From sequence record MN850614.1: a stretch of 64,000 nt of DNA, one strand, 5' to 3'. Each line of letters opens with the position of its first letter. Position 1 is the first letter of the stretch. The stretch is from Escherichia phage adrianh. The position numbers and the translations under genes are program-made. The notes under the pieces are model-generated. The model ran no database searches, was not told the origin of the DNA, and saw nothing but the letters and a program-made list of their open reading frames with translations. This document shows, in pieces, positions 17,382 to 26,628 of the stretch.

Positions 17382-18167
17382 ATGGGTATTGTAAAAATCA
17401 TCAATGGTGATATCTTTGCAGCATTTGATAAAGGTAAGTTTGATGTCATCGGTCACGGTTGCAACTGTATGAACTTAATGGGCGCAGGTATCGCTGACAA
17501 GATTTCCAAACTTTACCCAAAAGCATATGAGACCGACACAGAAGTTTATATGTATGCAGGTGGTATAGGACACAAACCCTGTGAAAATTTACTGGGTAAT
17601 TTCTCTGTAGCACGTTTAAAACAAGGTCGTATAGCTAACCTTTACACTCAGCTTAAGACTGGTAAAGATGCCCGATACAGTGCTTTAGAGTCATCTTTGA
17701 AGCAGCTTAACAGATACTGTGAAGTCAATCAGTTGAAGAAAGTAGGGTTACCTATGATTGGTGCAGGTATCGGTGGGCTAGACCCTCAAGCCGTCACAGT
17801 TATCATTAATCAGGTGATGAAGAGTGTAGATGTGTATCTATATGTCTATGAAGGAGAGATGTACCACAAGTTATGCTCAGGTTGGAAGAACTACTGTGAA
17901 CCAGAATACTTTGCAGGTGTAGCAGTGTTCACGGATAATGCAGTTACCCTCTTCAGACGAAGAAAGGGTAAGATACATCAAAGTAACCCTCCGGTTGAAA
18001 AGATGTCTCTAAGTAACGCTCTAGTTACCCACCTGTCGAAGAGCAATCACAGAATTGCAGTAACATTTGGCAGTGATGCAGATGCTTATATCTATGCAAG
18101 AACTGATGAGGATATCGAGTTAATCTTCTCTTCACCAGAGCTTACCTTCTTAGACGCAAAGAACTAA
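17382..18167 (+). CDS. Macro-domain protein (ADP-ribose binding/processing)
   Basis: 261 aa; N-terminal GDI..GHGCNCMNLMGAGIA and later GAGIGG resemble macro-domain glycine loops. Confidence 0.55.
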   Translation: MGIVKIINGDIFAAFDKGKFDVIGHGCNCMNLMGAGIADKISKLYPKAYETDTEVYMYAGGIGHKPCENLLGNFSVARLKQGRIANLYTQLKTGKDARYSALESSLKQLNRYCEVNQLKKVGLPMIGAGIGGLDPQAVTVIINQVMKSVDVYLYVYEGEMYHKLCSGWKNYCEPEYFAGVAVFTDNAVTLFRRRKGKIHQSNPPVEKMSLSNALVTHLSKSNHRIAVTFGSDADAYIYARTDEDIELIFSSPELTFLDAKN

Positions 18168-18235
18168 GAAACTTCGTAGTATATTCACAATAGACTAAGC
18201 CTTTCTTATCTGGTAAATTTTTCAGGTAAGGAGGG

Positions 18236-18421
18236 TTTTTTCATTTCAGATTTGTGCAGGTAGAGTTCTGTAGAGAAATCTATAGAGAAAATTTTGAACT
18301 CCAAAGAGAAAATTCATTTTCAAACTGTGCAGGTAATCTCCAAAGGGTTTTTTTCATTTTCAAAACGTGCAGAGAAAAATCAGGTCGGGCAAGAAAAATC
18401 ATTTTAGAATTGTGCAGGTAG
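18236..18421. repeat. Four tandem copies of a CATTTTCAAA-N2-GTGCAG(GTA) element
   Basis: Copies at about 18236, 18310, 18347 and 18393; related copy near 14066-14092. Confidence 0.6.
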
Positions 18422-18597
18422 GTGGGTACATGTGGGGATGTCGCCATTTCTCACAAGGCTACCACATCTAAAAATAAAAGTCAACAGAAAAATTTGTAGC
18501 GGATTGAAAAATAATTCTTGATTGTAGTTCTGTTTTGTGGTAGTCGCGCGCACCCGTTTCATTACAATCTTTGCAAAAAATATTTTTAAAATTCCTA

Positions 18598-18626
18598 TTG
18601 ACTCTTTGAGTATGGTTATCTAATAT
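18598..18626 (+). promoter_or_regulatory. Sigma70-like promoter
   Basis: TTGACT, 17 nt spacer, TAATAT. Confidence 0.5.
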
Positions 18627-18676
18627 TTGCATCAGACGGGCAATCAAGCCCACTTCCTAAACTGGAGAATCTAAAA

Positions 18677-18883
18677 ATGCTTTACAGTCGCGAATTGATG
18701 GTTACAACTAACATTAACACAAAGGCAAAACGTTTTTACATGCAAATCTGTGGCGTATGGTCTAGAATATCAGAGACTGACTATTGCAACTATGTAGAAA
18801 CGGCTATAAACTCTAATTGCTACCTTACAAGAAATACAAGAAAGTACATAAGACAGACAGCAATTTATTACTACGATAAATAA
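18677..18883 (+). CDS. Hypothetical protein
   Basis: 68 aa ORF downstream of promoter at 18598. Confidence 0.4.
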   Translation: MLYSRELMVTTNINTKAKRFYMQICGVWSRISETDYCNYVETAINSNCYLTRNTRKYIRQTAIYYYDK

Positions 18884-18971
18884 AGTACTTTACAAGGGGC
18901 TTATAGTTCGATAAAGTAAGCCCCAGATAAAGAGCTTTACCAAATTAACCCTTAAACTAGGAGATTCAAAA
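18881..18971 (+). promoter_or_regulatory. Cassette A copy 1 (TTTACA, GGGGCTT..AAGCCCC stem-loop, AGATAAAG, RBS)
   Basis: About 90 bp unit repeated 6 times; includes upstream stop codon and downstream GGAGA RBS. Confidence 0.6.
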
Positions 18972-19355
18972 ATGGCATATCGTGCACCGAAATTCATCAA
19001 CAAAGACAACTTTCGCAAAGTACTGGAGAAGTCACTTGATGAGAATTTTAAAGGCAACATTATTGTTGTTCACGCATTCAATTTTAAGTATGATGTAAAC
19101 GGGAATAGAATCAACCATTACACGGCAACCATGTTAGACGGTACACTATCAAGTGAAAAAGCCGTACTGAATGCACTAGCAGGACGCGGAAAAGTATTAG
19201 TAAGATGTGATAAGCGACGTTATCAGGGTGGCGCATATGGTTATGATGATGCTGTTTATCATCTTGAAAATATGGGCTATAAAGTAGAAAAAGCTGGAGT
19301 ATCGCAAATCATCGGGAGCGATGGTTATGTAACAATCTTCAAAATTAACGAATAA
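18972..19355 (+). CDS. Hypothetical protein
   Basis: 127 aa ORF between cassette copies. Confidence 0.5.
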   Translation: MAYRAPKFINKDNFRKVLEKSLDENFKGNIIVVHAFNFKYDVNGNRINHYTATMLDGTLSSEKAVLNALAGRGKVLVRCDKRRYQGGAYGYDDAVYHLENMGYKVEKAGVSQIIGSDGYVTIFKINE

Positions 19356-19441
19356 AGTACTTTACAAGGGGCTTATAGTTCGATAAAGTAAGCCCCAGAT
19401 AAAGAGCTTTACCACTAAATCCTAAATTGGAGAACTTAAAA
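19353..19441 (+). promoter_or_regulatory. Cassette A copy 2
   Basis: Near-identical to copy 1. Confidence 0.6.
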
Positions 19442-19675
19442 ATGGCTATTATCAAAAACGTTGTAATTGCTGCAAAAACTCGTGATGACGCTCGCGTTAT
19501 GGCTAAAAAGTTATGCGGGAAAGTGGTTGACAATGGGAAAAAATCTGCTGTAAGATGGGGCGTAAAGGTTGATAAACATTTAACCTTAAAACGTAGTTCA
19601 AACAACCTTTTTAAAGGTGTAAAATCACTCGGTAAAGTGAATGTTTTCACTAAAAAGGTTATAAAATGCACTTAG
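19442..19675 (+). CDS. Hypothetical protein
   Basis: ATG 19442 (track start is TTG inside the cassette); 77 aa. Confidence 0.45.
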   Translation: MAIIKNVVIAAKTRDDARVMAKKLCGKVVDNGKKSAVRWGVKVDKHLTLKRSSNNLFKGVKSLGKVNVFTKKVIKCT

Positions 19676-19696
19676 CATTAACTGGAAATTTAATCT

Positions 19697-19786
19697 GATA
19701 AAGTACTTTACATGGGGTTTAAAAGTTGATATCTTAAGCCCCAGATAAAGAGCTTTACCACTCAATCCTAAACTGGAGATTCAAAA
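19697..19786 (+). promoter_or_regulatory. Cassette A copy 3 (diverged stem)
   Basis: TTTACA then GGGGTTT..AAGCCCC stem, AGATAAAG. Confidence 0.55.
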
Positions 19787-20299
19787 ATGAAAACTGTAGA
19801 CGCTACTTTTGAAGTTGTAAAAGAAAAATTCACCATTATCTATGAAGCGGTAAATTGCTTTGAAGCAAGCCATAATCTTGATAATTGGAAGTTTACAGAT
19901 GACCATCAAGGCGGTGTGACTATTAAAAATCCTAACTGTCAGCGTAACGATTTTAAATATGCAATTCCTTTAAATTATAGCCTTAAGCAGCTTTCTAGTG
20001 ACTATGCAAAACAAGGCCGGGAAAACCCATCAAAAGAGGCTTATATCAGCTTACAGGAAGAACTAGAAAGAGATTTAGAGGCTTCAGAGTACAACCTTGC
20101 CGCGAAAGTTGTGGATGCAAACGGTAACACGGTTTTAGAAAGTTTTTATCTTGGTTATGCTTTCGATTGGTGCTATCGTGACGGCGATGATTTAGAGGAT
20201 AGACTAAAAGAAGAGGTGAGCAATTCAGACGCAGAAACTGAAGTATTAGAACGTTTGGAATCGTTGAAAGACTCAGTGATGAATATCTTTAAGAACTAA
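19787..20299 (+). CDS. Hypothetical protein
   Basis: 170 aa ORF. Confidence 0.5.
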   Translation: MKTVDATFEVVKEKFTIIYEAVNCFEASHNLDNWKFTDDHQGGVTIKNPNCQRNDFKYAIPLNYSLKQLSSDYAKQGRENPSKEAYISLQEELERDLEASEYNLAAKVVDANGNTVLESFYLGYAFDWCYRDGDDLEDRLKEEVSNSDAETEVLERLESLKDSVMNIFKN

Positions 20300-20391
20300 A
20301 TAGATTTCTTTACACGGGGCTAACAAGCTGATATGATAGCCCCAGATAAAGAGATTTATCAAATAAAGCCCTTAAACTAGGAGATTCTAAA
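20300..20391 (+). promoter_or_regulatory. Cassette A copy 4 (diverged)
   Basis: TTTACA then GGGGCTA..TAGCCCC stem, AGATAAAG. Confidence 0.55.
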
Positions 20392-20688
20392 ATGAAATTA
20401 TCGAATAAAGTTCGTGAAAATCTGAGCAAATTACTCAACAAAATTGATTTCATTGAAACATCAAGAAATAGTCATGATGTTATGGAATGGTTACACGGCA
20501 AAATAAAAGGCCGTCGTGTAGTGATTTGTTTATGGAATAGTTGCAGGGAGTATAAAAAACCTGTATTGCAAGTAAATATTTATGATGATACTTTTAAAAG
20601 TCCTGTAAAGTCTAAAAGTGATTTATTAGAATCCTATGAGATAACTTTAAATGGCAAAGTATCACGTAAAGAGGAAACACCATGTTAA
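20392..20688 (+). CDS. Hypothetical protein
   Basis: 98 aa ORF. Confidence 0.45.
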   Translation: MKLSNKVRENLSKLLNKIDFIETSRNSHDVMEWLHGKIKGRRVVICLWNSCREYKKPVLQVNIYDDTFKSPVKSKSDLLESYEITLNGKVSRKEETPC

Positions 20689-21014
20689 TGACTGGTATCA
20701 CTGCAATCATTGCCATTTTCGCGCTATATAAGGCATATAAAGCCTATAATCTAGCAAATAAGGCAATCACACAGCAGGTTAGCAATAACCTTGTAGAAAG
20801 CTTTCTAGGGCGCCTCAGTGATGAGCAAATAAAGCGGCTAGAGATGAGCTTCAGATATAAAGCGAAAACCTATCAGATAAGTGACATCTTCAAAGATGAT
20901 TTTCAGTTAGTGGATGATTATAACTCTCTGATAAATGCTTTAAATATTAGTGACTTAAAAGACTATTACGCTGTAATTGTCCAAGAATTGAACAAACGAA
21001 AAAATTCCTCTTGA
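20682..21014 (+). CDS. Hypothetical membrane protein
   Basis: 110 aa, hydrophobic N-terminal segment. Confidence 0.45.
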   Translation: MLMTGITAIIAIFALYKAYKAYNLANKAITQQVSNNLVESFLGRLSDEQIKRLEMSFRYKAKTYQISDIFKDDFQLVDDYNSLINALNISDLKDYYAVIVQELNKRKNSS

Positions 21015-21102
21015 TTTTGGTTTTTAAAACAAGTAAATTACTAATCAACGGGAGGTAATAACCTCCCCACTAAGTAAAATCCTTAAACTAGGAGCTTTTA
21101 AA
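21008..21102 (+). promoter_or_regulatory. Cassette B copy 1 (TAAATTACTAATCAAC, GGGAGG..CCTCCC stem-loop, RBS)
   Basis: Second repeat family, 6 copies; stems conserved with variable loops. Confidence 0.6.
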
Positions 21103-21375
21103 ATGTACACTACTAACAACGGTCGCACCTTAAACGTAACCCTACGCCACTACATGAACGGCGTAATGCACTTCGAGGATTTACAAGCCGAACAACATAT
21201 CTTAGATTGGCAACTTGCAGGACTACAAAAAACTGCTACAGGATACGGGAAAAAGATTCCAACCAGTTGGAAAGTATACTACGAAGGCCGTTTGCGCAGA
21301 ATTTATCAGGATGTGCAAAGCAATAGCGCATTGAGTTACATCATAGTAAAAGGTAAAAAGCTGCATTTAGTATAA
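21103..21375 (+). CDS. Hypothetical protein
   Basis: 90 aa ORF. Confidence 0.45.
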   Translation: MYTTNNGRTLNVTLRHYMNGVMHFEDLQAEQHILDWQLAGLQKTATGYGKKIPTSWKVYYEGRLRRIYQDVQSNSALSYIIVKGKKLHLV

Positions 21376-21461
21376 AGTACTTTACAAGGGGCTTATAGTT
21401 CGATAAAGTAAGCCCCAGATAAAGAGCTTTACCACTAAATCCTAAATTGGAGAACTTAAAA
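21373..21461 (+). promoter_or_regulatory. Cassette A copy 5
   Basis: Identical to copy 2 through the start codon. Confidence 0.6.
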
Positions 21462-21866
21462 ATGGCTATTAATAATCGCGAGTTATCAATCTTAAAAGCA
21501 CGTTTGACCGTTAACCGGATTAATGTTATTACGTCATCAGCACCGGACGAAACATTGCACAACATTATTGGGAAGATTCAAAGCGTTATCTTAGACGTTG
21601 AAAACGTAAAAAACTCATTGGCTGACGTTGCAGCAGGTATCACGCTAGACGGTGCACAATATGAAATGACCGACATGTTAGGCAAATCTAAGGTAATGAA
21701 TAAAGAGCTTGATTTGAAAATGTTTCGGTTTGCTGTTAAAGTGTGGCTATCTGTCGAGTATGACGCTAACTTTGCAATCGCTGACTTTTTCGCCACTTGG
21801 TTACAACGTAATTTGACAAATCATGATTTTCGTGGTATCTGTGATGCAATTTATGCAGAACTCTAA
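21462..21866 (+). CDS. Hypothetical protein
   Basis: ATG 21462; N-terminus MAI shared with 19442 gene via cassette. Confidence 0.45.
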   Translation: MAINNRELSILKARLTVNRINVITSSAPDETLHNIIGKIQSVILDVENVKNSLADVAAGITLDGAQYEMTDMLGKSKVMNKELDLKMFRFAVKVWLSVEYDANFAIADFFATWLQRNLTNHDFRGICDAIYAEL

Positions 21867-21873
21867 AAATTTA

Positions 21874-21967
21874 TCTTGATTTTGGTTTTTAAAACAAGTA
21901 AATTACTAATCAACGGGAGGTAATAGCCTCCCCACTAAACAAAGTCCTTAAACTAGGAGATTCAAAA
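21874..21967 (+). promoter_or_regulatory. Cassette B copy 2
   Basis: Includes upstream CTTGATTTTGGTTTTTAAAAC extension shared with copy 1. Confidence 0.6.
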
Positions 21968-22171
21968 ATGGCTATTATTAACGGTTTAACCATTGAAACT
22001 ACACACATCAAAGATATTAAAGTCGGTGATGTAGTTCTCTTTCACGGCGTAGAAAAAACCGTCACGGCGAAAGATATTACAGAGGACTCCTTCATGGGTA
22101 GGTCACTCTTCGGTGATTCTTATTGCTTAGGTTACCGTGCAGTTTTAAAAGTTGTAAAAAATAACCGATAA
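21968..22171 (+). CDS. Hypothetical protein
   Basis: 67 aa ORF. Confidence 0.4.
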   Translation: MAIINGLTIETTHIKDIKVGDVVLFHGVEKTVTAKDITEDSFMGRSLFGDSYCLGYRAVLKVVKNNR

Positions 22172-22256
22172 AGTACTTTACAAGGGGCTTATAGTTCGAT
22201 AAAGTAAGCCCCAGATAAAGAGCTTTACCACTAAATCCTAAATTGGAGATTCTAAA
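22167..22256 (+). promoter_or_regulatory. Cassette A copy 6
   Basis: Near-identical to copies 1, 2 and 5. Confidence 0.6.
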
Positions 22257-22799
22257 ATGAAATGCTTTCACGGTACTACCCAAGAAAATTTCCTCAACCT
22301 GATTAATAACGGTGACAAGCCATCAGGTGCATGGAATTGTTCGGATATGGACGGCAATTTTTACGTGTACCCAGAAAATAAAATCTATGGCGACGATGAG
22401 GAAGAGATAATCTCTGAAGGTATCCAGCAAGCGTTAGGTAATGCCACTATTACGGCCGCTTTCCAGATGAAAACCCAAAATATTGTTATCTTAGAACTTG
22501 ATATCCCAGAGGATGACCTAAATGACGATTATTCTTGTGATAATATGTCTGGCGTAGCAAGTTTTACAGAATACTTCGATTTAAATTGGATTAAAAAGGT
22601 TTACGTAACAGAGTTTAACGCTATGTATTCGCCTTTTTGTCTTCCTTCATTGGATAACCCAAATTTAAATTATCTTGATGAGTCTCTGGAGCTTCTTGCT
22701 AAAAGTGTCCAACAGTCGGACAGTATTCAGGTTTTTTGTGACATCATGGACACACTAACGGGAAACATCGCAGAAGAGGATTTAAAGAGCTTTTTCTAA
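22257..22799 (+). CDS. Hypothetical protein
   Basis: 180 aa acidic ORF. Confidence 0.5.
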   Translation: MKCFHGTTQENFLNLINNGDKPSGAWNCSDMDGNFYVYPENKIYGDDEEEIISEGIQQALGNATITAAFQMKTQNIVILELDIPEDDLNDDYSCDNMSGVASFTEYFDLNWIKKVYVTEFNAMYSPFCLPSLDNPNLNYLDESLELLAKSVQQSDSIQVFCDIMDTLTGNIAEEDLKSFF

Positions 22800-22831
22800 A
22801 AACCTATGCAATCACCTTATAAACACTGATT

Positions 22832-22852
22832 AGCCCCTCACAGGGGCTTTTA
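22832..22852 (+). terminator. Hairpin, weak terminator
   Basis: AGCCCCT CACA GGGGCT then TTT. Confidence 0.35.
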
Positions 22853-22865
22853 AGAGGCTTAAATC

Positions 22866-23099
22866 ATGCTTACAACCGTTTATCTTATCCTTTCTATTTG
22901 TAATGGTCATTCATGTGATTTTAAAGGGCTTGAGGAGTTTACAGGAAGTAAAGAAAATGCTGTTCAGGTCTGTCAGATAGCAAGGCAAGACTACCCCGCC
23001 AGTGATGACATACAATGTTACTTTAAGACAGAAGATGAAGATGGTATCTATTTCGATAGTGTAGACGGTCAATATGAAATAATTATAGAAAAAGACTAG
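22866..23099 (+). CDS. Hypothetical protein
   Basis: 77 aa ORF. Confidence 0.4.
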   Translation: MLTTVYLILSICNGHSCDFKGLEEFTGSKENAVQVCQIARQDYPASDDIQCYFKTEDEDGIYFDSVDGQYEIIIEKD

Positions 23100-23115
23100 A
23101 CAAGCCTGATAAAAA

Positions 23116-23189
23116 TCTGTAAATTACTAATCAACGGGGAGGGAATGACCTTCCCCACTAAACAAAATCCTAAACTGGAGATTCAAAAA
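23116..23189 (+). promoter_or_regulatory. Cassette B copy 3 (variant stem GGGGAGGG..CCTTCCCC)
   Basis: Stem retained through compensatory substitutions. Confidence 0.55.
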
Positions 23190-23531
23190 ATGGCTTATGT
23201 AACCGTAATTACTGATAAAGAGGGTTCATCTTGGTCAACTCAGGTTAGTGATAAGATGTCGCCTATGCAGTGCCTAAAATACTTTGAACAGTGGAACAAA
23301 GGCGAGGACACAAGCCCCTTTCAAGTGATGCAGATTATCCATGTAGACAATGAAGGGAAGAAAACGACTTTAAACAGCGAGTTCTATGCAACCCGATTTG
23401 AAACGAGATGTAAAACGATGAAGTTATTACGTGAATCCGGTTATGCCCATATCGCCGCGTTAATCTGGGATGACCTGCTAAAAAGTCAGCGTATCAGCTA
23501 TGTAAAACCTGAAAAAATATTCATCAGTTAA
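23190..23531 (+). CDS. Hypothetical protein
   Basis: Track ORF 23145..23531 trimmed to ATG 23190 after cassette RBS. Confidence 0.45.
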   Translation: MAYVTVITDKEGSSWSTQVSDKMSPMQCLKYFEQWNKGEDTSPFQVMQIIHVDNEGKKTTLNSEFYATRFETRCKTMKLLRESGYAHIAALIWDDLLKSQRISYVKPEKIFIS

Positions 23532-23687
23532 TCAATAACTTACAAAAAACTTTCAAAAAAGTATTGACAACGCCCCTTGACATTGGTAGATTTGTTCGAG
23601 GGGGTTTATCTAAAAGGGATTAACTTAAAAGATTCTTTATAGATAAACTTAAAAAATTGCTTGCAATCAGATATCAAAACAAGTAAA

Positions 23688-23752
23688 TTACTAATCAACG
23701 GGAGGTAATAGCCTCCCCACTAAACAAAGTCCTTAAACTAGGAGATTCAAAA
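23688..23752 (+). promoter_or_regulatory. Cassette B copy 4
   Basis: Identical core to copy 2. Confidence 0.6.
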
Positions 23753-24283
23753 ATGAACAAATTTCAAGCTATCAACTACATTCGCTCAAATGCTGTAATG
23801 TCTAAGCCTGTTAAAGATACCTATGAATTTCGCTGCAATGGGGTACACTTTGCAACCATCACTAAATCAGAAAACGGGGCTTATTACGTTCATCGTCGTA
23901 ATGTTGCAACCGTTGTAGTCTCTCACTTTATGCAAGCTGTAGCAGAGTTATTACCGCTATTCTTAGGGATTTACTTGGATGAGTGTAAAAACGTTCACAA
24001 CCACGTTAAAAACCTTTTAAACGGTTATAAAATGGCTTATGAACGTTCTATCAAGTCCTTAAACAAGTTCTATAAAGCCCCTGTAAATACTGTTTCAATG
24101 GCCTACGCTGCAAATGGTGAAAGAGTAAACCTATCCGATGTGGAAGATATCGAGCTTTACGACCATCGGCCTAACGGTTACTCTCAGACACTCGGTGAAG
24201 GTTTAACGTTCAATATCAAGAACTTAGAAAAAACTTTAAAAGATATTGAAAAAGATATTGACGAGACAATCAAAAATCTGTAA
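23753..24283 (+). CDS. Hypothetical protein
   Basis: 176 aa ORF. Confidence 0.5.
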   Translation: MNKFQAINYIRSNAVMSKPVKDTYEFRCNGVHFATITKSENGAYYVHRRNVATVVVSHFMQAVAELLPLFLGIYLDECKNVHNHVKNLLNGYKMAYERSIKSLNKFYKAPVNTVSMAYAANGERVNLSDVEDIELYDHRPNGYSQTLGEGLTFNIKNLEKTLKDIEKDIDETIKNL

Positions 24284-24347
24284 ATTACTAATCAACGGGA
24301 GGTAATAGCCTCCCCACTAAACAAAGTCCTAAACTGGAGTTATCAAG
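24279..24347 (+). promoter_or_regulatory. Cassette B copy 5
   Basis: Begins at the upstream gene stop codon (CTG TAA ATTACTAATC). Confidence 0.6.
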
Positions 24348-24611
24348 ATGGAAAACGTAGAATTAACCACACTTTTACAAATTGCAACCGACAAAGAAGA
24401 TGTAGCATTATTCCACCGTATCGAAAGTGATTTGTTCAATGGTGAAATCATCAAAGAATCTTATGAAGTTGTCGGATTCAAAGATGGTAAAGCGTTTGGC
24501 TTTTTTGACCTCGACAAAGGCAACGCGGTTGCAAAATATGATGTTTTATCTTGTGAGATTCTTACAAAATACAACGAAAAAAGGCTTGCAACATACGCCA
24601 ACATGCAGTAA
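24348..24611 (+). CDS. Hypothetical protein
   Basis: 87 aa ORF. Confidence 0.45.
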   Translation: MENVELTTLLQIATDKEDVALFHRIESDLFNGEIIKESYEVVGFKDGKAFGFFDLDKGNAVAKYDVLSCEILTKYNEKRLATYANMQ

Positions 24612-24677
24612 ATTACTAATCAACGGGAGGCGACAACCTCCCCACTAAATAAAACCCTTAAACTAGGAGATTCAAAA
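24608..24677 (+). promoter_or_regulatory. Cassette B copy 6 (variant loop GCGACAA)
   Basis: GGGAGG..CCTCCCC stem retained, loop differs. Confidence 0.55.
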
Positions 24678-24926
24678 ATGGCAACTATCCGCGCTACTGT
24701 TAACGAGTTCGGTTTTTCCTCTCTGGATGTTAAATTTGACATTGTAGGCACTGATAACGCCTTTGAAATGGTGAAAGGTCTTATCAGTCAGACCATCAAA
24801 GGCTATAATCCTTCTAAGGAGTTCTGGGAGGAAACAAAACAGGAAGTTCTTAAGGATGGTTACACTTATCACTATTGGGGAGAAAAAATCGTCTCCCTGT
24901 ACTACGACAAACAAGATTATAACTAA
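24678..24926 (+). CDS. Hypothetical protein
   Basis: 82 aa ORF. Confidence 0.45.
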   Translation: MATIRATVNEFGFSSLDVKFDIVGTDNAFEMVKGLISQTIKGYNPSKEFWEETKQEVLKDGYTYHYWGEKIVSLYYDKQDYN

Positions 24927-24964
24927 TCGGCGCAGCGGGGCTAAATAGCCCCAGATACCTTTAC

Positions 24965-24992
24965 AGCCCCTTTCCCATAGGGGCTTTTTTAC
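24965..24992 (+). terminator. Rho-independent terminator closing the plus-strand small-gene block
   Basis: AGCCCCT..AGGGGCT hairpin then TTTTTT; second hairpin just upstream at about 24937-24952. Confidence 0.6.
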
Positions 24993-25419
24993 GTCTATCC
25001 AATCCTCATACAACCCCTTTCCCTTTCCTTTCCAGAATCTTATCAGACCTTAAAAAGCAATAACTTTACAGCCTTTTACTAAGTCAATTAATTGGCCTTA
25101 TTAATAAGCCCTTAAACATAAGCCAATAACCCCAGAAAGGGGGCAACCCATTTAAACGCCATATAAAGCCCTATAACGGCCTTTTTAACCTAACTTAAGG
25201 GATTGCATTACCTCACCCTTAAAAGCCCTTTATAAAGCTTCACAGAGCCTTAAAAGAATCTTATAAGGGTGTAAGCTTTATTATCTCGTTAGCTATCTTG
25301 TGAACTACTAAACAACCCCCTTGATAGTAACTGAAAAGTATGTTATAGGGGCTTTAAAGTTACTTTGAAGTATCTTAAGAGTTACGTAAATGCTAGCCCC
25401 CTTAACATTCTCTTAACAA

Positions 25420-26520
25420 TTTCTTAACAATCCCTACATAGTTATGCTTTTAAGGCACTTGTTAGCAACTTGTTAGCCCCTTGTTAAATCTCTGTTAAGA
25501 CCACGTAAAAGCCTTGTAAGAGTCTTTGACATAGCCTTTAAAGCTTCTGTAAAGCCTTATAAAGAGGTGTCTGTACAGTTGGGGTGTAACTACTAGTGAG
25601 AGACTTAAAAGAGCTTACAAGGAGCTATAGAGAGCTTTTAAGAGGTATGTTTAAGGAATCACTAAGAAAGGAAAGGGAACGATAAGAAAAGAGTAGTGAC
25701 CATGTTAATAGCTTGTTAAAAAGATTAAACACTTGTTAGAAACTTGTTAATTATCTTAACAAAATAACTCTTTAAAATTAACTTGTTAGCTCTTGTTAGT
25801 CATCTGTTAAGCCTCTGTAAAGACTATTCAGCACTTGTTAATTGGTATTGTTACCAATCCCTAGAAAACTGTTAAGCCCTTGTCAGTTCTGTTAAGAAAC
25901 TGTTAAGACCTTTGAAGAGTTGTTAAGAAGATGTGAGAACTGTTAAGAGATTGTTAAGGATATTTTAAAATTTTGCAAAGGGGATGTTACAGGGATGTTA
26001 AGGGCTACCAAGCAGATATACATCCTCTACAGATATTTTTCAGTTCCTTCAAAGACCCTAAAAAAAAAATGACTTGACAGTCTTATTTTATAAAAATTTT
26101 AAAATTCTGAATAATTACCTAGACAGTCTTTTAAAAATACAGGTAGAAACAGGCTTATAAGATACCTTGTTAGTACCGTGTTAGACCTTGTGAGATAAGG
26201 TCTGTGAAGATATTCCTGTTAAGTTTGTTAAAACAGCCTATATAGAGGCTTAGTAATACCTAGTGAACACCTATAGAGGGTAACATAGCTAACCTAGAGA
26301 TTAAGAGGTGTATAGGAGCTTCTAAGAGTGTGTAGAGAGATGGTTAAGGTGATTGTATAGGTTGTTAAGAAGGCTTGTTAGAAGAGTGTTTAGAAGGCTT
26401 GTTAGAGGGCTAGTTAGAAGGGTTATACAGAGGGGCTATTAAGACCACTAGATAGTTACTAAGATACTATATAGTACTATATAACTATATATAGAGAGTA
26501 AGATTAAGAAGGTTGTTAAG
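25420..26520. repeat. Dense array of short TGTTAAG / TTGTTAG-type repeats in a coding desert
   Basis: No track ORF between 25013 and 26629; more than 30 copies of TGTTAAG-like heptamers at 8-20 bp spacing. Confidence 0.7.
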
Positions 26521-26592
26521 AAGGGTAGATATTTTATTCACATATGATGGTGACCCAGAGGTTGGGACAACCGATAAAATTTTATAAAAATT

Positions 26593-26617
26593 AAAAAGCC
26601 CCCCAATTAAGGAGGCT
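26593..26617 (-). terminator. Rho-independent terminator for the minus-strand block
   Basis: On minus strand AGCCTCC..GGGGGGCT hairpin followed by TTTTT. Confidence 0.5.
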
Positions 26618-26628
26618 CTTAAGATATT

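What the first reader, a model, noticed from the sequence alone, without database searches (positions are those of the whole stretch)
18881..24677. Two families of repeated stem-loop/RBS cassettes punctuating about 15 small genes
Cassette A (6 copies: TTTACA, GGGGCTT...AAGCCCC stem-loop, AGATAAAG, GGAGA RBS) and cassette B (6 copies: TAAATTACTAATCAAC, GGGAGG...CCTCCC stem-loop, RBS) each sit immediately upstream of a small ORF and often include the stop codon of the previous gene and the first codons of the next, so unrelated genes share start context (the MAI N-termini at 19442 and 21462). Stems are preserved by compensatory changes while loops vary, which argues for a functional RNA or DNA structure. 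This resembles the promoter/stem-loop cassettes described in T4-type phages as vehicles for modular gene shuffling, and the small ORFs are plausible host-takeover or anti-defence cargo.
Basis: partly seen in the sequence, partly recalled or inferred. Interest (0 to 1): 0.7.

Follow-up and report, generated by a model that had tools for sequence, protein, structure and literature searches.

The report
Promoter–hairpin cassettes that shuffle phage genes
Twelve near-identical promoter, hairpin and ribosome-site cassettes separate the small early genes of this Felix O1-type phage, and related phages gain, lose and reorder genes exactly at these cassettes, as described before only for T4-type phages.

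Summary
Six A and six B cassettes lie at the stated coordinates (chance expectation about 0.01 copies) in the early region of a Felixounavirus.

Cassette A is a host-type promoter, TTTACA-N17-TAnnnT. Its -10 box sits in the loop of the GGGGCTTA/TAAGCCCC hairpin. [quoted passage not shown]

Cassette B is a full promoter (-35 at exactly 17 nt, -10 TAAATT) followed by a 6-8 bp G/C hairpin at the 5' end of its own transcript. Both types end in the same A-rich GGAG leader.

Covariation, including G-C to U-A changes in Erwinia phage phiEa21-4, and frequent G·U pairs show that the sense strand folds.

Across 18 related genomes, 9 of about 20 structural differences are clean A×A or B×B events that leave one cassette. 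Four more lie in the shared leader. Only 2 have an end inside a gene.

The architecture and behaviour match the PeSL cassettes of T4-like phages, here found in an unrelated subfamily (Ounavirinae). The 2010 Felix O1 paper listed the repeats without interpreting them.

Promoter use, the role of the hairpin and the functions of the genes remain untested.

The parts
18881..18971 (+). Cassette A copy 1. Upstream stop TAA at 18881-18883. -35 TTTACA 18889-18894. -10 TAAAGT 18912-18917. Hairpin arms 18896-18903 and 18917-18924. Extended palindrome 18881-18939. SD GGAG 18960-18963. ATG 18972.
19353..19441 (+). Cassette A copy 2. -35 at 19361-19366. -10 TAAAGT 19384-19389. Arms 19368-19375 and 19389-19396. 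SD 19429-19432. ATG 19442.
19699..19786 (+). Cassette A copy 3. -35 at 19707-19712. -10 TATCTT 19730-19735, with TG upstream. Arms GGGGTTTA 19714-19721 and TAAGCCCC 19735-19742, with one U·G pair. SD 19775-19778. ATG 19787.
20301..20391 (+). Cassette A copy 4, the diverged 'short' lineage. -35 at 20309-20314. -10 TATGAT 20332-20337. Arms GGGGCTA and TAGCCCC at 20316-20343. The outer stem is 13 bp. SD 20380-20383. ATG 20392.
21373..21461 (+). Cassette A copy 5, identical to copy 2 through the first codons. -35 at 21381-21386. -10 at 21404-21409. Arms 21388-21395 and 21409-21416. ATG 21462.
22169..22256 (+). Cassette A copy 6. -35 at 22177-22182. -10 at 22200-22205. Arms 22184-22191 and 22205-22212. 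ATG 22257.
21011..21102 (+). Cassette B copy 1. -35 TTGATT 21011-21016. -10 TAAATT 21034-21039. Hairpin 21050-21068. SD 21091-21094. ATG 21103.
21876..21967 (+). Cassette B copy 2. -35 TTGATT 21876-21881. -10 at 21899-21904. Hairpin 21915-21933. ATG 21968.
23097..23189 (+). Cassette B copy 3. -35 TAGACA 23097-23102. -10 at 23120-23125. Hairpin GGGGAGGG/CCTTCCCC 23136-23156, with one G·U pair. ATG 23190.
23661..23752 (+). Cassette B copy 4. -35 TTGCAA 23661-23666. -10 at 23684-23689. Hairpin 23700-23718. ATG 23753.
24258..24347 (+). Cassette B copy 5. -35 TTGACG 24258-24263, inside the upstream ORF. -10 TAAATT 24281-24286, whose TAA is the upstream stop codon. Hairpin 24297-24315. ATG 24348.
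24586..24677 (+). Cassette B copy 6. -35 TTGCAA 24586-24591, inside the upstream ORF. -10 at 24609-24614, which contains the upstream stop codon. Hairpin GGGAGG/CCTCCC 24625-24643. ATG 24678.
18598..18676 (+). TTGACT 18598-18603, N17, TAATAT 18621-18626. Small hairpin GGGC-AATCAA-GCCC 18638-18651. Same leader and SD (GGAG 18664-18667). ATG 18677.
18677..24926 (+). Array of 16 small + strand ORFs (67-180 aa) of unknown function. This is the cargo between the cassettes.
24939..24958 (+). Degenerate remnant of the A hairpin (GGGGCTAAATAGCCCCAGATA) after the last gene. It is the right-hand breakpoint of a deletion in phage SP4 (L017).
22832..22853 (+). Ordinary terminator-like hairpin AGCCCC-TCACA-GGGGCT followed by TTTT, between the genes at 22257 and 22866. 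This junction carries no A or B cassette.
24965..24991 (+). Canonical intrinsic terminator (hairpin plus T-run) that closes the rightward gene array.

Best explanation
These are PeSL-type composite cassettes (early promoter, stem-loop and ribosome site) of the early hyperplastic region of a Felix O1-like phage (Ounavirinae).

Each cassette starts at or near the stop codon of the upstream gene. It contains a promoter for the host sigma-70 RNA polymerase, a G/C-rich hairpin, and a standard A-rich leader (CCACTAAA..CCT(T)AAACT(A)GGAGATTCAAAAATG).

In cassette A the promoter is TTTACA-N17-TAnnnT. The hairpin spans the spacer, the -10 box and the discriminator. [quoted passage not shown] The hairpin can therefore form only in sense RNA read through from upstream, or in single-stranded sense DNA.

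In cassette B the promoter is an A-tract, a TTGACA-like -35, N17 and TAAATT. The hairpin starts 10 nt after the -10 box, so it lies near the 5' end of its own mRNA and just 3' of the upstream gene's stop codon.

The proposed working has three parts.
(1) Each small gene gets autonomous early expression and a uniform, strong translation start. This is inferred from conservation patterns and from early RT-PCR timing in Felix O1.
(2) The hairpins fold in sense-strand RNA and punctuate transcripts between modules. They could attenuate read-through, form a 3'-end or processing structure for the upstream message, or, in B, form a 5' stabiliser. Folding of the sense strand is shown by covariation. Which of these activities applies is not shown.
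(3) Because the cassettes are 60-110-nt near-identical direct repeats, homologous recombination between them deletes, inserts, swaps and reorders the genes they flank while always regenerating one working cassette. This is shown by comparing genomes.
For: Identity of the window. It is a Felixounavirus: 254 phage records match, the best at about 90-94% identity.

Promoter in A. All 95 A copies in 19 genomes keep TTTACA and a 17-nt spacer. The -10 box varies (TAAAGT, TATCTT, TATGAT, TAAGAT, TAGGAT, TAGTAT and others), but T1 and A2 are invariant and T6 is at least 90% conserved.

Promoter in B. In 61 of 65 distinct upstream contexts a hexamer matching TTGACA at 4 or more of 6 positions lies exactly 17 nt upstream of TAAATT. 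The background rate is 5.7%. This includes non-homologous hexamers inside the coding ends of different upstream genes.

Expression timing. Felix O1 ORFs 16, 20, 21 and 22, which lie behind A and B cassettes, peak at 5 min by RT-PCR.

Structure. A folds at -24 to -27 kcal/mol with z-scores of -2.9 to -5.1. The B intergenic sequences fold at about -14 to -22.5 kcal/mol in all, with z-scores of -1.9 to -3.5. The 20-pair A structure is 93.8% paired against at most 55% for slid controls. Pair 22-46 is GC in 44 and UA in 4 sequences. Pair 9-59 is GC in 33 and UA in 9. Wobble pairs are abundant (U·G in 19, 44 and 10 sequences at three pairs). Wobbles would be A·C mismatches on the other strand. None of 500 shuffles reaches the covariation score.

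Recombination. Gene-order strings and BLAST breakpoints show 9 clean same-type events, in which the flanking alignments overlap by one cassette (59-105 nt). One is a 3.2-kb A×A deletion of 8 genes in LF82P5. Four more events lie in the shared leader.

Position swapping. Cassette variants move between positions and become alike within genomes.

Conservation. Cassette A is 82% identical in Erwinia phage phiEa21-4, while the flanked proteins are only 29-52% identical and their order differs.

Match to the published family. The architecture agrees with the PeSL description.
Against: No transcript mapping exists for any Felix O1-like phage. Promoter use, start sites and any termination or processing are therefore inferred.

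Neither hairpin is followed by a U-run. A is followed by AGATAAAGAG and B by ACTAAAYAAA, so neither is a canonical intrinsic terminator.

The A hairpin is not contained in the transcript started at its own promoter, so its role depends on read-through or on DNA structure.

The sequences in the covariation test are related and recombine. The shuffle control therefore overstates independence. The UA state at pair 22-46 is a single lineage (phiEa21-4).

Selection for viable genomes would by itself enrich intergenic breakpoints, although it would not explain the in-register, scarless junctions.

Two events have an end inside an ORF. Several insertions sit at cassette edges rather than between two cassettes.
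Confidence: 0.75

Rival explanations
1. The repeats are ordinary early promoters and ribosome sites and nothing more. They look alike because of functional constraint and recent local duplication. The hairpins are incidental, and recombination at the repeats is a passive by-product with no role in how the region evolves.
For: The promoter and SD signals explain much of the conservation. The cassettes occupy one 6-kb region only. GenBank annotators treated some of them simply as promoters.
Against: Stem positions that no promoter needs are conserved or covary. Spacer and leader positions are identical over about 100 nt, including the first codons of unrelated genes. The cassette is far better conserved between genera than the genes are. 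Thirteen of about 20 rearrangements use the cassettes or their leaders.
Confidence: 0.12
2. The A palindrome is mainly an RNA processing site. Read-through transcripts form a ~20-bp interrupted duplex that host RNase III cuts, as at the intercistronic sites of the phage T7 early region. This separates the messages and leaves a protective 3' hairpin. Transcripts started inside the palindrome would escape cleavage.
For: The helix is 6 + 5 + 9 bp with a mismatch and a 3×3 internal loop, at -24 to -27 kcal/mol. There is covariation in both the outer and inner helices, and the wobble pairs are specific to the sense strand. There is no U-run for termination. The similarity to T7 RNase III sites rests on my own knowledge and was not tested.
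Against: Cassette B occupies equivalent positions and can replace A in front of the same gene, yet it has only a 6-8 bp stem. That is too short for RNase III. No cleavage data exist.
Confidence: 0.15
3. The inverted repeats act in DNA. One version is an operator for a dimeric phage regulator that shuts off early promoters. The other is a cruciform that presents the -10 box as single-stranded DNA in its loop.
For: The A repeat is centred on the -10 box and covers -35 to +17. Bas63 encodes a putative transcriptional regulator. PeSL stem-loops were shown to form in single-stranded DNA during sequencing reactions.
Against: B stems differ widely in sequence (37 variants: GGGAGG, GGGGAGGG, GGGGG, GGGC, GGGA) while keeping the ability to pair, which does not suit a sequence-specific operator. 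One-sided C-to-T changes are tolerated only in the direction that gives G·U on the sense strand. The commonest state of one A pair is U·G, which would be an A·C mismatch in the complementary hairpin of a cruciform.
Confidence: 0.08
4. The cassettes are site-specific recombination sites like integron attC: folded imperfect palindromes that flank mobile gene cassettes and are recognised by a dedicated recombinase.
For: This is an array of small ORFs separated by ~60-nt imperfect palindromes. PeSL mini-circles in RB49/phi1 resemble circular integron cassettes.
Against: No integrase or recombinase gene is annotated in the complete Bas63 genome. No attC core motifs are evident in the sequence. Junctions carry crossovers at different points along 60-110 nt of homology, including the leader, which suits homologous rather than site-specific exchange. 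Each cassette carries its own promoter, unlike integron cassettes.
Confidence: 0.03

Closest known systems
PeSLs (promoter-early stem-loops) of T4-like phages RB49/phi1, PST/T4 and nt-1/KVP40 (Arbiol et al. 2010, PMC2839356; Comeau et al. 2014, PMC4122927)
   Same: A sigma-70-type early promoter with N17 spacing, where the T4/PST consensus TTTACW-N17-TAYWAT is nearly that of cassette A. AT-rich DNA upstream of -35. A G(n)-loop-C(n) stem-loop between -35 and -10 or overlapping -10. An SD and start codon at the 3' end. About 100 nt of conservation. Clustering in a hyperplastic region of small orphan ORFs. Indels between close relatives bounded by the motifs.
   Different: The host lineage is Ounavirinae (Felix O1-like, ~87 kb), which is unrelated to T4-like phages. 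There are two or three discrete, interchangeable cassette types rather than one loose family. In type B the hairpin lies downstream of the start site. In type A it is extended to a ~20-bp covarying helix that includes the -35 box and the first ~17 transcribed nucleotides. The cassettes are confined to a single 6-kb region. Promoter activity, terminator activity and mini-circles have not been tested here.
RNase III processing sites between early genes of phage T7 (own knowledge)
   Same: Interrupted ~20-bp hairpins placed between early cistrons transcribed by host RNA polymerase.
   Different: T7 early genes share upstream promoters and have no promoter inside the hairpin. Cassette B is too short for this role. 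No cleavage evidence exists here.
Morons of lambdoid phages (discussed in PMC2839356)
   Same: Single accessory genes with their own promoter and terminator, inserted between other genes.
   Different: Morons lack conserved flanking repeats and are thought to arrive by illegitimate recombination. Here the flanking regulatory repeats are themselves the crossover sites.
Integron attC sites and gene cassettes (own knowledge)
   Same: An array of small ORFs separated by folded imperfect palindromes, with possible circular intermediates.
   Different: No integrase, no attC core sites, each unit has its own promoter, and crossovers are spread over the homology.

Membership tests
PeSL (promoter-early stem-loop cassette) | Sigma-70-like early promoter with -35 and -10 boxes about 17 nt apart | tested here: met
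   A: 95 of 95 copies have TTTACA-N17-TAnnnT with T1 and A2 invariant. B: 61 of 65 contexts have a -35 match of at least 4/6 at exactly 17 nt, against a 5.7% background. Promoter activity itself was not measured.
PeSL (promoter-early stem-loop cassette) | AT-rich tract upstream of the -35 box | tested here: met
   B contexts carry A-tracts (AAAAAATT, GAAAAAGA, CGAAAAAAGG) directly upstream of -35. A has ATAAAGTAC upstream. This was judged by eye and not scored statistically.
PeSL (promoter-early stem-loop cassette) | Stable stem-loop, often G-run/C-run, within or next to the promoter | tested here: met
   A: GGGGCTTA/TAAGCCCC spans the spacer and the -10 box. B: GGGAGG/CCTCCC lies 10 nt after -10.
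PeSL (promoter-early stem-loop cassette) | Shine-Dalgarno sequence and start codon of the downstream gene at the 3' end | tested here: met
   GGAG lies 7-9 nt before ATG (end of GGAG to ATG) in all 12 copies.
PeSL (promoter-early stem-loop cassette) | Located in a hyperplastic region of small orphan genes, with indels between relatives bounded by the motifs | tested here: met
   Coverage of the region in relatives ranges from 100% down to under 40%. There are 9 clean same-type events and 4 leader events out of about 20. The ORFs have no known function.
PeSL (promoter-early stem-loop cassette) | Stem-loop acts as a transcription terminator or attenuator (shown by reporter assay in RB49) | not testable with these tools
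   No U-run follows either hairpin. No transcript data were found.
PeSL (promoter-early stem-loop cassette) | Recombination between nearby copies yields encapsidated mini-circles | not testable with these tools
   This needs inverse PCR on phage lysates.
Canonical intrinsic (Rho-independent) terminator | G/C-rich hairpin directly followed by a U-run | tested here: not met
   The consensus scan lists none of the 12 hairpins. It finds only 24965-24985 inside the region, plus sites outside the array such as 18197-18238. The tails are AGATAAAGAG (A) and ACTAAAYAAA (B).
Known RNA families (Rfam 15) | Match to a curated covariance model | tested here: not met
   The only match is a chance hit to a microRNA model, at E = 0.93 and 20.8 bits against a gathering score of 47.
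Integron attC site | Associated tyrosine-recombinase integrase and conserved core sites | tested here: not met
   No integrase is annotated in the complete Bas63 genome. No core motifs were seen when reading the sequence. No profile search for recombinases was run.

The most novel reading that the evidence does not exclude
The ~20-bp covarying A helix has the -35 box in its stem, the -10 box in its loop and the first 17 transcribed bases in its 3' arm. It could be a switch that couples upstream read-through to the downstream module. Read-through RNA would fold and be cut or terminated, while the same sequence in DNA fires a fresh transcript that cannot fold. Alternatively it could be a structure recognised by a phage factor that makes the gene cassettes actively mobile. 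Either would be a conserved, structured RNA/DNA element found across Ounavirinae, rather than a passive repeat.
Probability: 0.12. Interest if true: 0.8.

Novelty: new member of a known kind. Interest (0 to 1): 0.5.

Why it matters
PeSL-type shuffling has been documented only in T4-like phages. Finding the same design in the unrelated Felix O1 subfamily suggests it is a general, perhaps convergent, way for virulent phages to keep a plug-and-play toolbox of early accessory genes. The design here is a promoter, hairpin and ribosome-site repeat that is better conserved than the genes it flanks, with scarless cassette-to-cassette gene gain and loss.

Felix O1-like phages are widely used for Salmonella and E. 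coli biocontrol, and they include the tractable BASEL phage Bas63. The cassettes predict where these genomes will lose or swap genes. They offer natural landing pads for engineering. They also give a compact system for testing what the hairpin does.

Tried and rejected
(1) A second, upstream promoter in cassette A, using the TAAAGT that overlaps the stop codon as a -10 box, so that the hairpin would lie in A's own transcript as in B. I rejected this because the upstream hexamer is not conserved as TAnnnT (AAAAGT, GAGATT and TAGACC occur) and -35 matches 16-18 nt upstream are mostly 1-3 of 6.

(2) The hairpins as minus-strand terminators, as annotated in the KhF1 record. There is no U-run on that strand either, and the G·U pairs would become A·C mismatches there.

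(3) A register-based pair count for B stems. It was confounded by an extra 3' C and by indels. I relied on per-copy folding instead.

(4) Rfam, Pfam and PHROGs gave nothing informative.

(5) Literature searches for a transcriptome of a Felix O1-like phage found none. One search was badly framed and wasted. One search found nothing relevant.

(6) N4-type hairpin promoters for a virion RNA polymerase. The Felix O1 paper states that the phage encodes no RNA polymerase, and the loops here are 11-14 nt long.

(7) My first tally of '13 of 15' cassette-bounded events was too generous. Recounting one search gives about 20 differences: 9 clean same-type, 4 in the leader, about 5 at cassette edges or in spacers, and 2 with an end inside an ORF.

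Full report
WHAT IS THERE

Reading 18500-25200 and listing ORFs shows 16 small + strand ORFs (67-180 aa) between 18677 and 24926. Most are separated by 64-111-nt spacers.

All are on the + strand. The chance expectation is 0.01 and 0.00 copies. None occurs elsewhere in the 64-kb window.

The window is a Felix O1-like myovirus (Felixounavirus, Ounavirinae). 254 phage records match the region, the best at about 90-94% identity. In the complete 87.1-kb genome of the close relative Bas63, the cassettes are likewise confined to one ~6-kb stretch at the end of the rightward early gene block.

ANATOMY

Cassette A reads TAAAGTAC-TTTACA-N-GGGGCTTA-(11-nt loop)-TAAGCCCC-AGATAAAGAGCTTTACC-leader-GGAG-N7-9-ATG.

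- TTTACA and a TAnnnT hexamer are exactly 17 nt apart.
Across 95 copies from 19 genomes it varies freely at its inner positions (TAAAGT, TATCTT, TATGAT, TAAGAT, TAGGAT, TAGTAT and others). T1 and A2 are invariant and T6 is at least 90% conserved. That is the signature of a sigma-70 -10 box.
- Cassette A is therefore a promoter whose -10 box sits in the loop of the hairpin.

Cassette B is also a complete promoter.

- TAAATT is the -10 box.
- In 61 of 65 distinct upstream contexts, a hexamer matching TTGACA at 4-6 positions lies exactly 17 nt upstream, against a background of 5.7%. An A-tract precedes it.
- Several of these -35 boxes are non-homologous sequences inside the 3' coding ends of different genes (TTGACG at 24258, TTGCAA at 24586).
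- In those copies the stop codon of the upstream gene is the TAA of TAAATT.
- The GGGAGG/CCTCCC hairpin begins 10 nt after the -10 box, so it lies at about the 5' end of B's own transcript.

Both types end in one shared leader, CCACTAAA..CCT(T)AAACT(A)GGAGATTCAAAAATG. A third, B-like cassette that was not reported precedes the first gene (TTGACT-N17-TAATAT, small GGGC/GCCC hairpin, same leader; 18598-18676).

STRUCTURE

[quoted passage not shown] The whole stretch from the stop codon to about +17 pairs as 6 + 5 + 9 bp, with one mismatch and a 3×3 internal loop. The energy is -24 to -27 kcal/mol, with z-scores of -2.9 to -5.1. The -35 box lies in the 5' arm, and the first transcribed bases (AGATAAAG) lie in the 3' arm.

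I tested this 20-pair structure on 48 distinct copies from Felixounavirus, Mooglevirus and the Erwinia phage phiEa21-4 (Kolesnikvirus).

- 93.8% of cells pair, against at most 55% when the partners are slid.
- Four pairs show changes on both sides. Pair 22-46 is G-C in 44 copies and U-A in all four phiEa21-4 copies. Pair 9-59 is G-C in 33 and U-A in 9.
- None of 500 shuffles reaches the covariation score.
- G·U pairs are common (U·G in 19, 44 and 10 sequences at three pairs). On the complementary strand these would be A·C mismatches, so the sense strand is the one that folds.

Two caveats apply. The copies are related and recombine, so events are few. The phiEa21-4 state is one lineage.

B hairpins come in 37 distinct sequences among 95 copies (GGGAGG, GGGGAGGG, GGGGG, GGGC, GGGA and GGTGAGG stems). 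Nearly all fold at -7 to -17 kcal/mol at the same position. The commonest form contains a G·U pair.

No hairpin is followed by a U-run, and the terminator scan lists none of them. Rfam has no match.

RELATED GENOMES

I fetched the homologous region from 18 relatives. I called and clustered ORFs and typed each spacer. I then mapped alignment breakpoints onto the window.

Gene content varies greatly. Coverage of this region by other Felixounaviruses runs from 100% down to under 40%.

Of about 20 structural differences:

- Nine are clean exchanges between two cassettes of the same type. The two flanking alignments overlap by one cassette (59-105 nt), so exactly one intact cassette remains. There are six A×A events: loss of the genes at 18972 and 19442 in Felix O1; loss of three genes in Alf5; loss of the gene at 19787 in Barry; loss of the gene at 19442 in SP4; a 3.2-kb loss of eight genes in LF82P5; and an extra gene inserted before 22257 in KhF1, vB_SflM_004 and ASO1A. 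There are three B×B events: loss of 21968-22866 in Felix O1 and Si3; loss of 24348 in Bas63, allfine, UAB_Phi87, Felix O1 and Alf5; and loss of 23753-24348 in Si3.
- Four lie in the shared leader. Two of these join the promoter part of one cassette type to the leader of another.
- About five sit at cassette edges or in long spacers.
- Only two have an end inside an ORF.

Junction cassettes are hybrids. Hairpin variants move between positions and become uniform within genomes. For example, one variant sits at three positions in SP4, and all Mooglevirus copies carry the U·G form.

In phiEa21-4 the flanked proteins are 29-52% identical to those of the window and stand in a different order. Cassette A is 82% identical at the DNA level there. 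A further cassette type in that phage again puts a G(n)/C(n) hairpin over the -10 box. The cassette is therefore under stronger constraint than its cargo.

WHAT IT MOST LIKELY IS

The architecture matches the published description of PeSLs in T4-like phages. That description is a near-consensus early promoter with N17 spacing, AT-rich DNA upstream, a G(n)-loop-C(n) stem-loop between the boxes or over the -10 box, an SD and start codon at the 3' end, about 100 nt of conservation, clustering among orphan ORFs, and indels bounded by the motifs. The T4/PST consensus TTTACW-N17-TAYWAT is almost that of cassette A.

I conclude that these are PeSL-type cassettes in an unrelated phage subfamily.

- Shown: the repeats, the promoter-like conservation pattern, folding of the sense strand, and cassette-bounded rearrangement.
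- Inferred: that host RNA polymerase starts at them. This is consistent with Felix O1 ORFs 16, 20, 21 and 22 peaking at 5 min by RT-PCR.
- Also inferred: that the hairpins punctuate transcripts.
- Open: what the hairpin does. Options are attenuation, a 3'-end or processing structure for the upstream message, a 5' stabiliser in B, an RNase III site in A, or a DNA-level role.

PRIOR KNOWLEDGE

The 2010 Felix O1 genome paper listed a 57-bp repeat (cassette A) and a 39-bp repeat (the B promoter) merely as direct repeats. It did not include them among its promoters or terminators. Some GenBank records annotate B as a promoter plus a predicted terminator, or as a minus-strand terminator. Full-text searches found PeSLs discussed only for T4-like phages.

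CARGO

There are no Pfam hits. All ten proteins tested fall in PHROG families of unknown function. The Bas63 orthologue of the 180-aa protein at 22257 (gp107) was reported as conditionally important on one host, with slight structural similarity to the NAD-binding domain of RNA 2'-phosphotransferase. An anti-defence or host-takeover role remains a guess.

VERDICT

This is a new member of a known kind, with variant features worth testing: two or three interchangeable cassette types, and a ~20-bp covarying helix that encloses the promoter. Interest is moderate.

Noticed in passing
window 25000-26620: A 1.6-kb stretch with no ORFs follows the gene array. It is packed with about 31 copies of TGTTA(A/G), of which 27 are on the + strand, often 10-11 nt apart, with a few inverted copies at 25407-25429. 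It looks like an iteron array, such as a replication origin or another protein-binding region. Relatives keep a similar gap, and the allfine record annotates repeat regions there.
   Followed up: partly
window 23532-23752: A long 221-nt spacer contains an extra strong promoter-like site (TTGACA 23564-N17-TAGATT 23592). It is flanked by a C-run/G-run inverted repeat (CGCCCC ... GGGGG) in the opposite polarity to cassette A. LF82P5 and SP4 carry a small extra gene at this position.
   Followed up: partly
all cassette leaders, e.g. window 18950-18963: The shared leader exists in two forms, CCTAAACTGGAG and CCTTAAACTAGGAG. An inserted T on the 5' side goes together with an inserted A on the 3' side. 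Both forms keep a weak CC(U)/(A)GG hairpin that pairs part of the Shine-Dalgarno sequence. phiEa21-4 has the analogous CCTTATAAAGGA.
   Followed up: no
window 22257-22799: The Bas63 orthologue (gp107) of this 180-aa protein is reported as more important on E. coli S17-1, with slight structural similarity to the NAD-binding domain of RNA 2'-phosphotransferase (bioRxiv 10.1101/2024.10.10.617714).
   Followed up: no
window 36000-41100: A cluster of phage tRNA genes, seen as families of T-arm repeats in the repeat finder. About 25 tRNAs are annotated in the corresponding Bas63 region.
   Followed up: no
window 18168-18597: A ~500-nt spacer follows the macro-domain 'phosphatase' gene (17382-18167). 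It contains a terminator-like hairpin at 18197-18238. Relatives annotate two tiny minus-strand ORFs there, or carry different small + strand genes, so this is another variable spot.
   Followed up: no
L010 (phage Barry) 2447-2711: A tandem duplication of about 130 nt covers the 3' end of the orthologue of the gene at 21103 plus an A cassette. The record annotates it as Repeat_01. It looks like a slippage or unequal-crossover product with one end in a cassette.
   Followed up: partly
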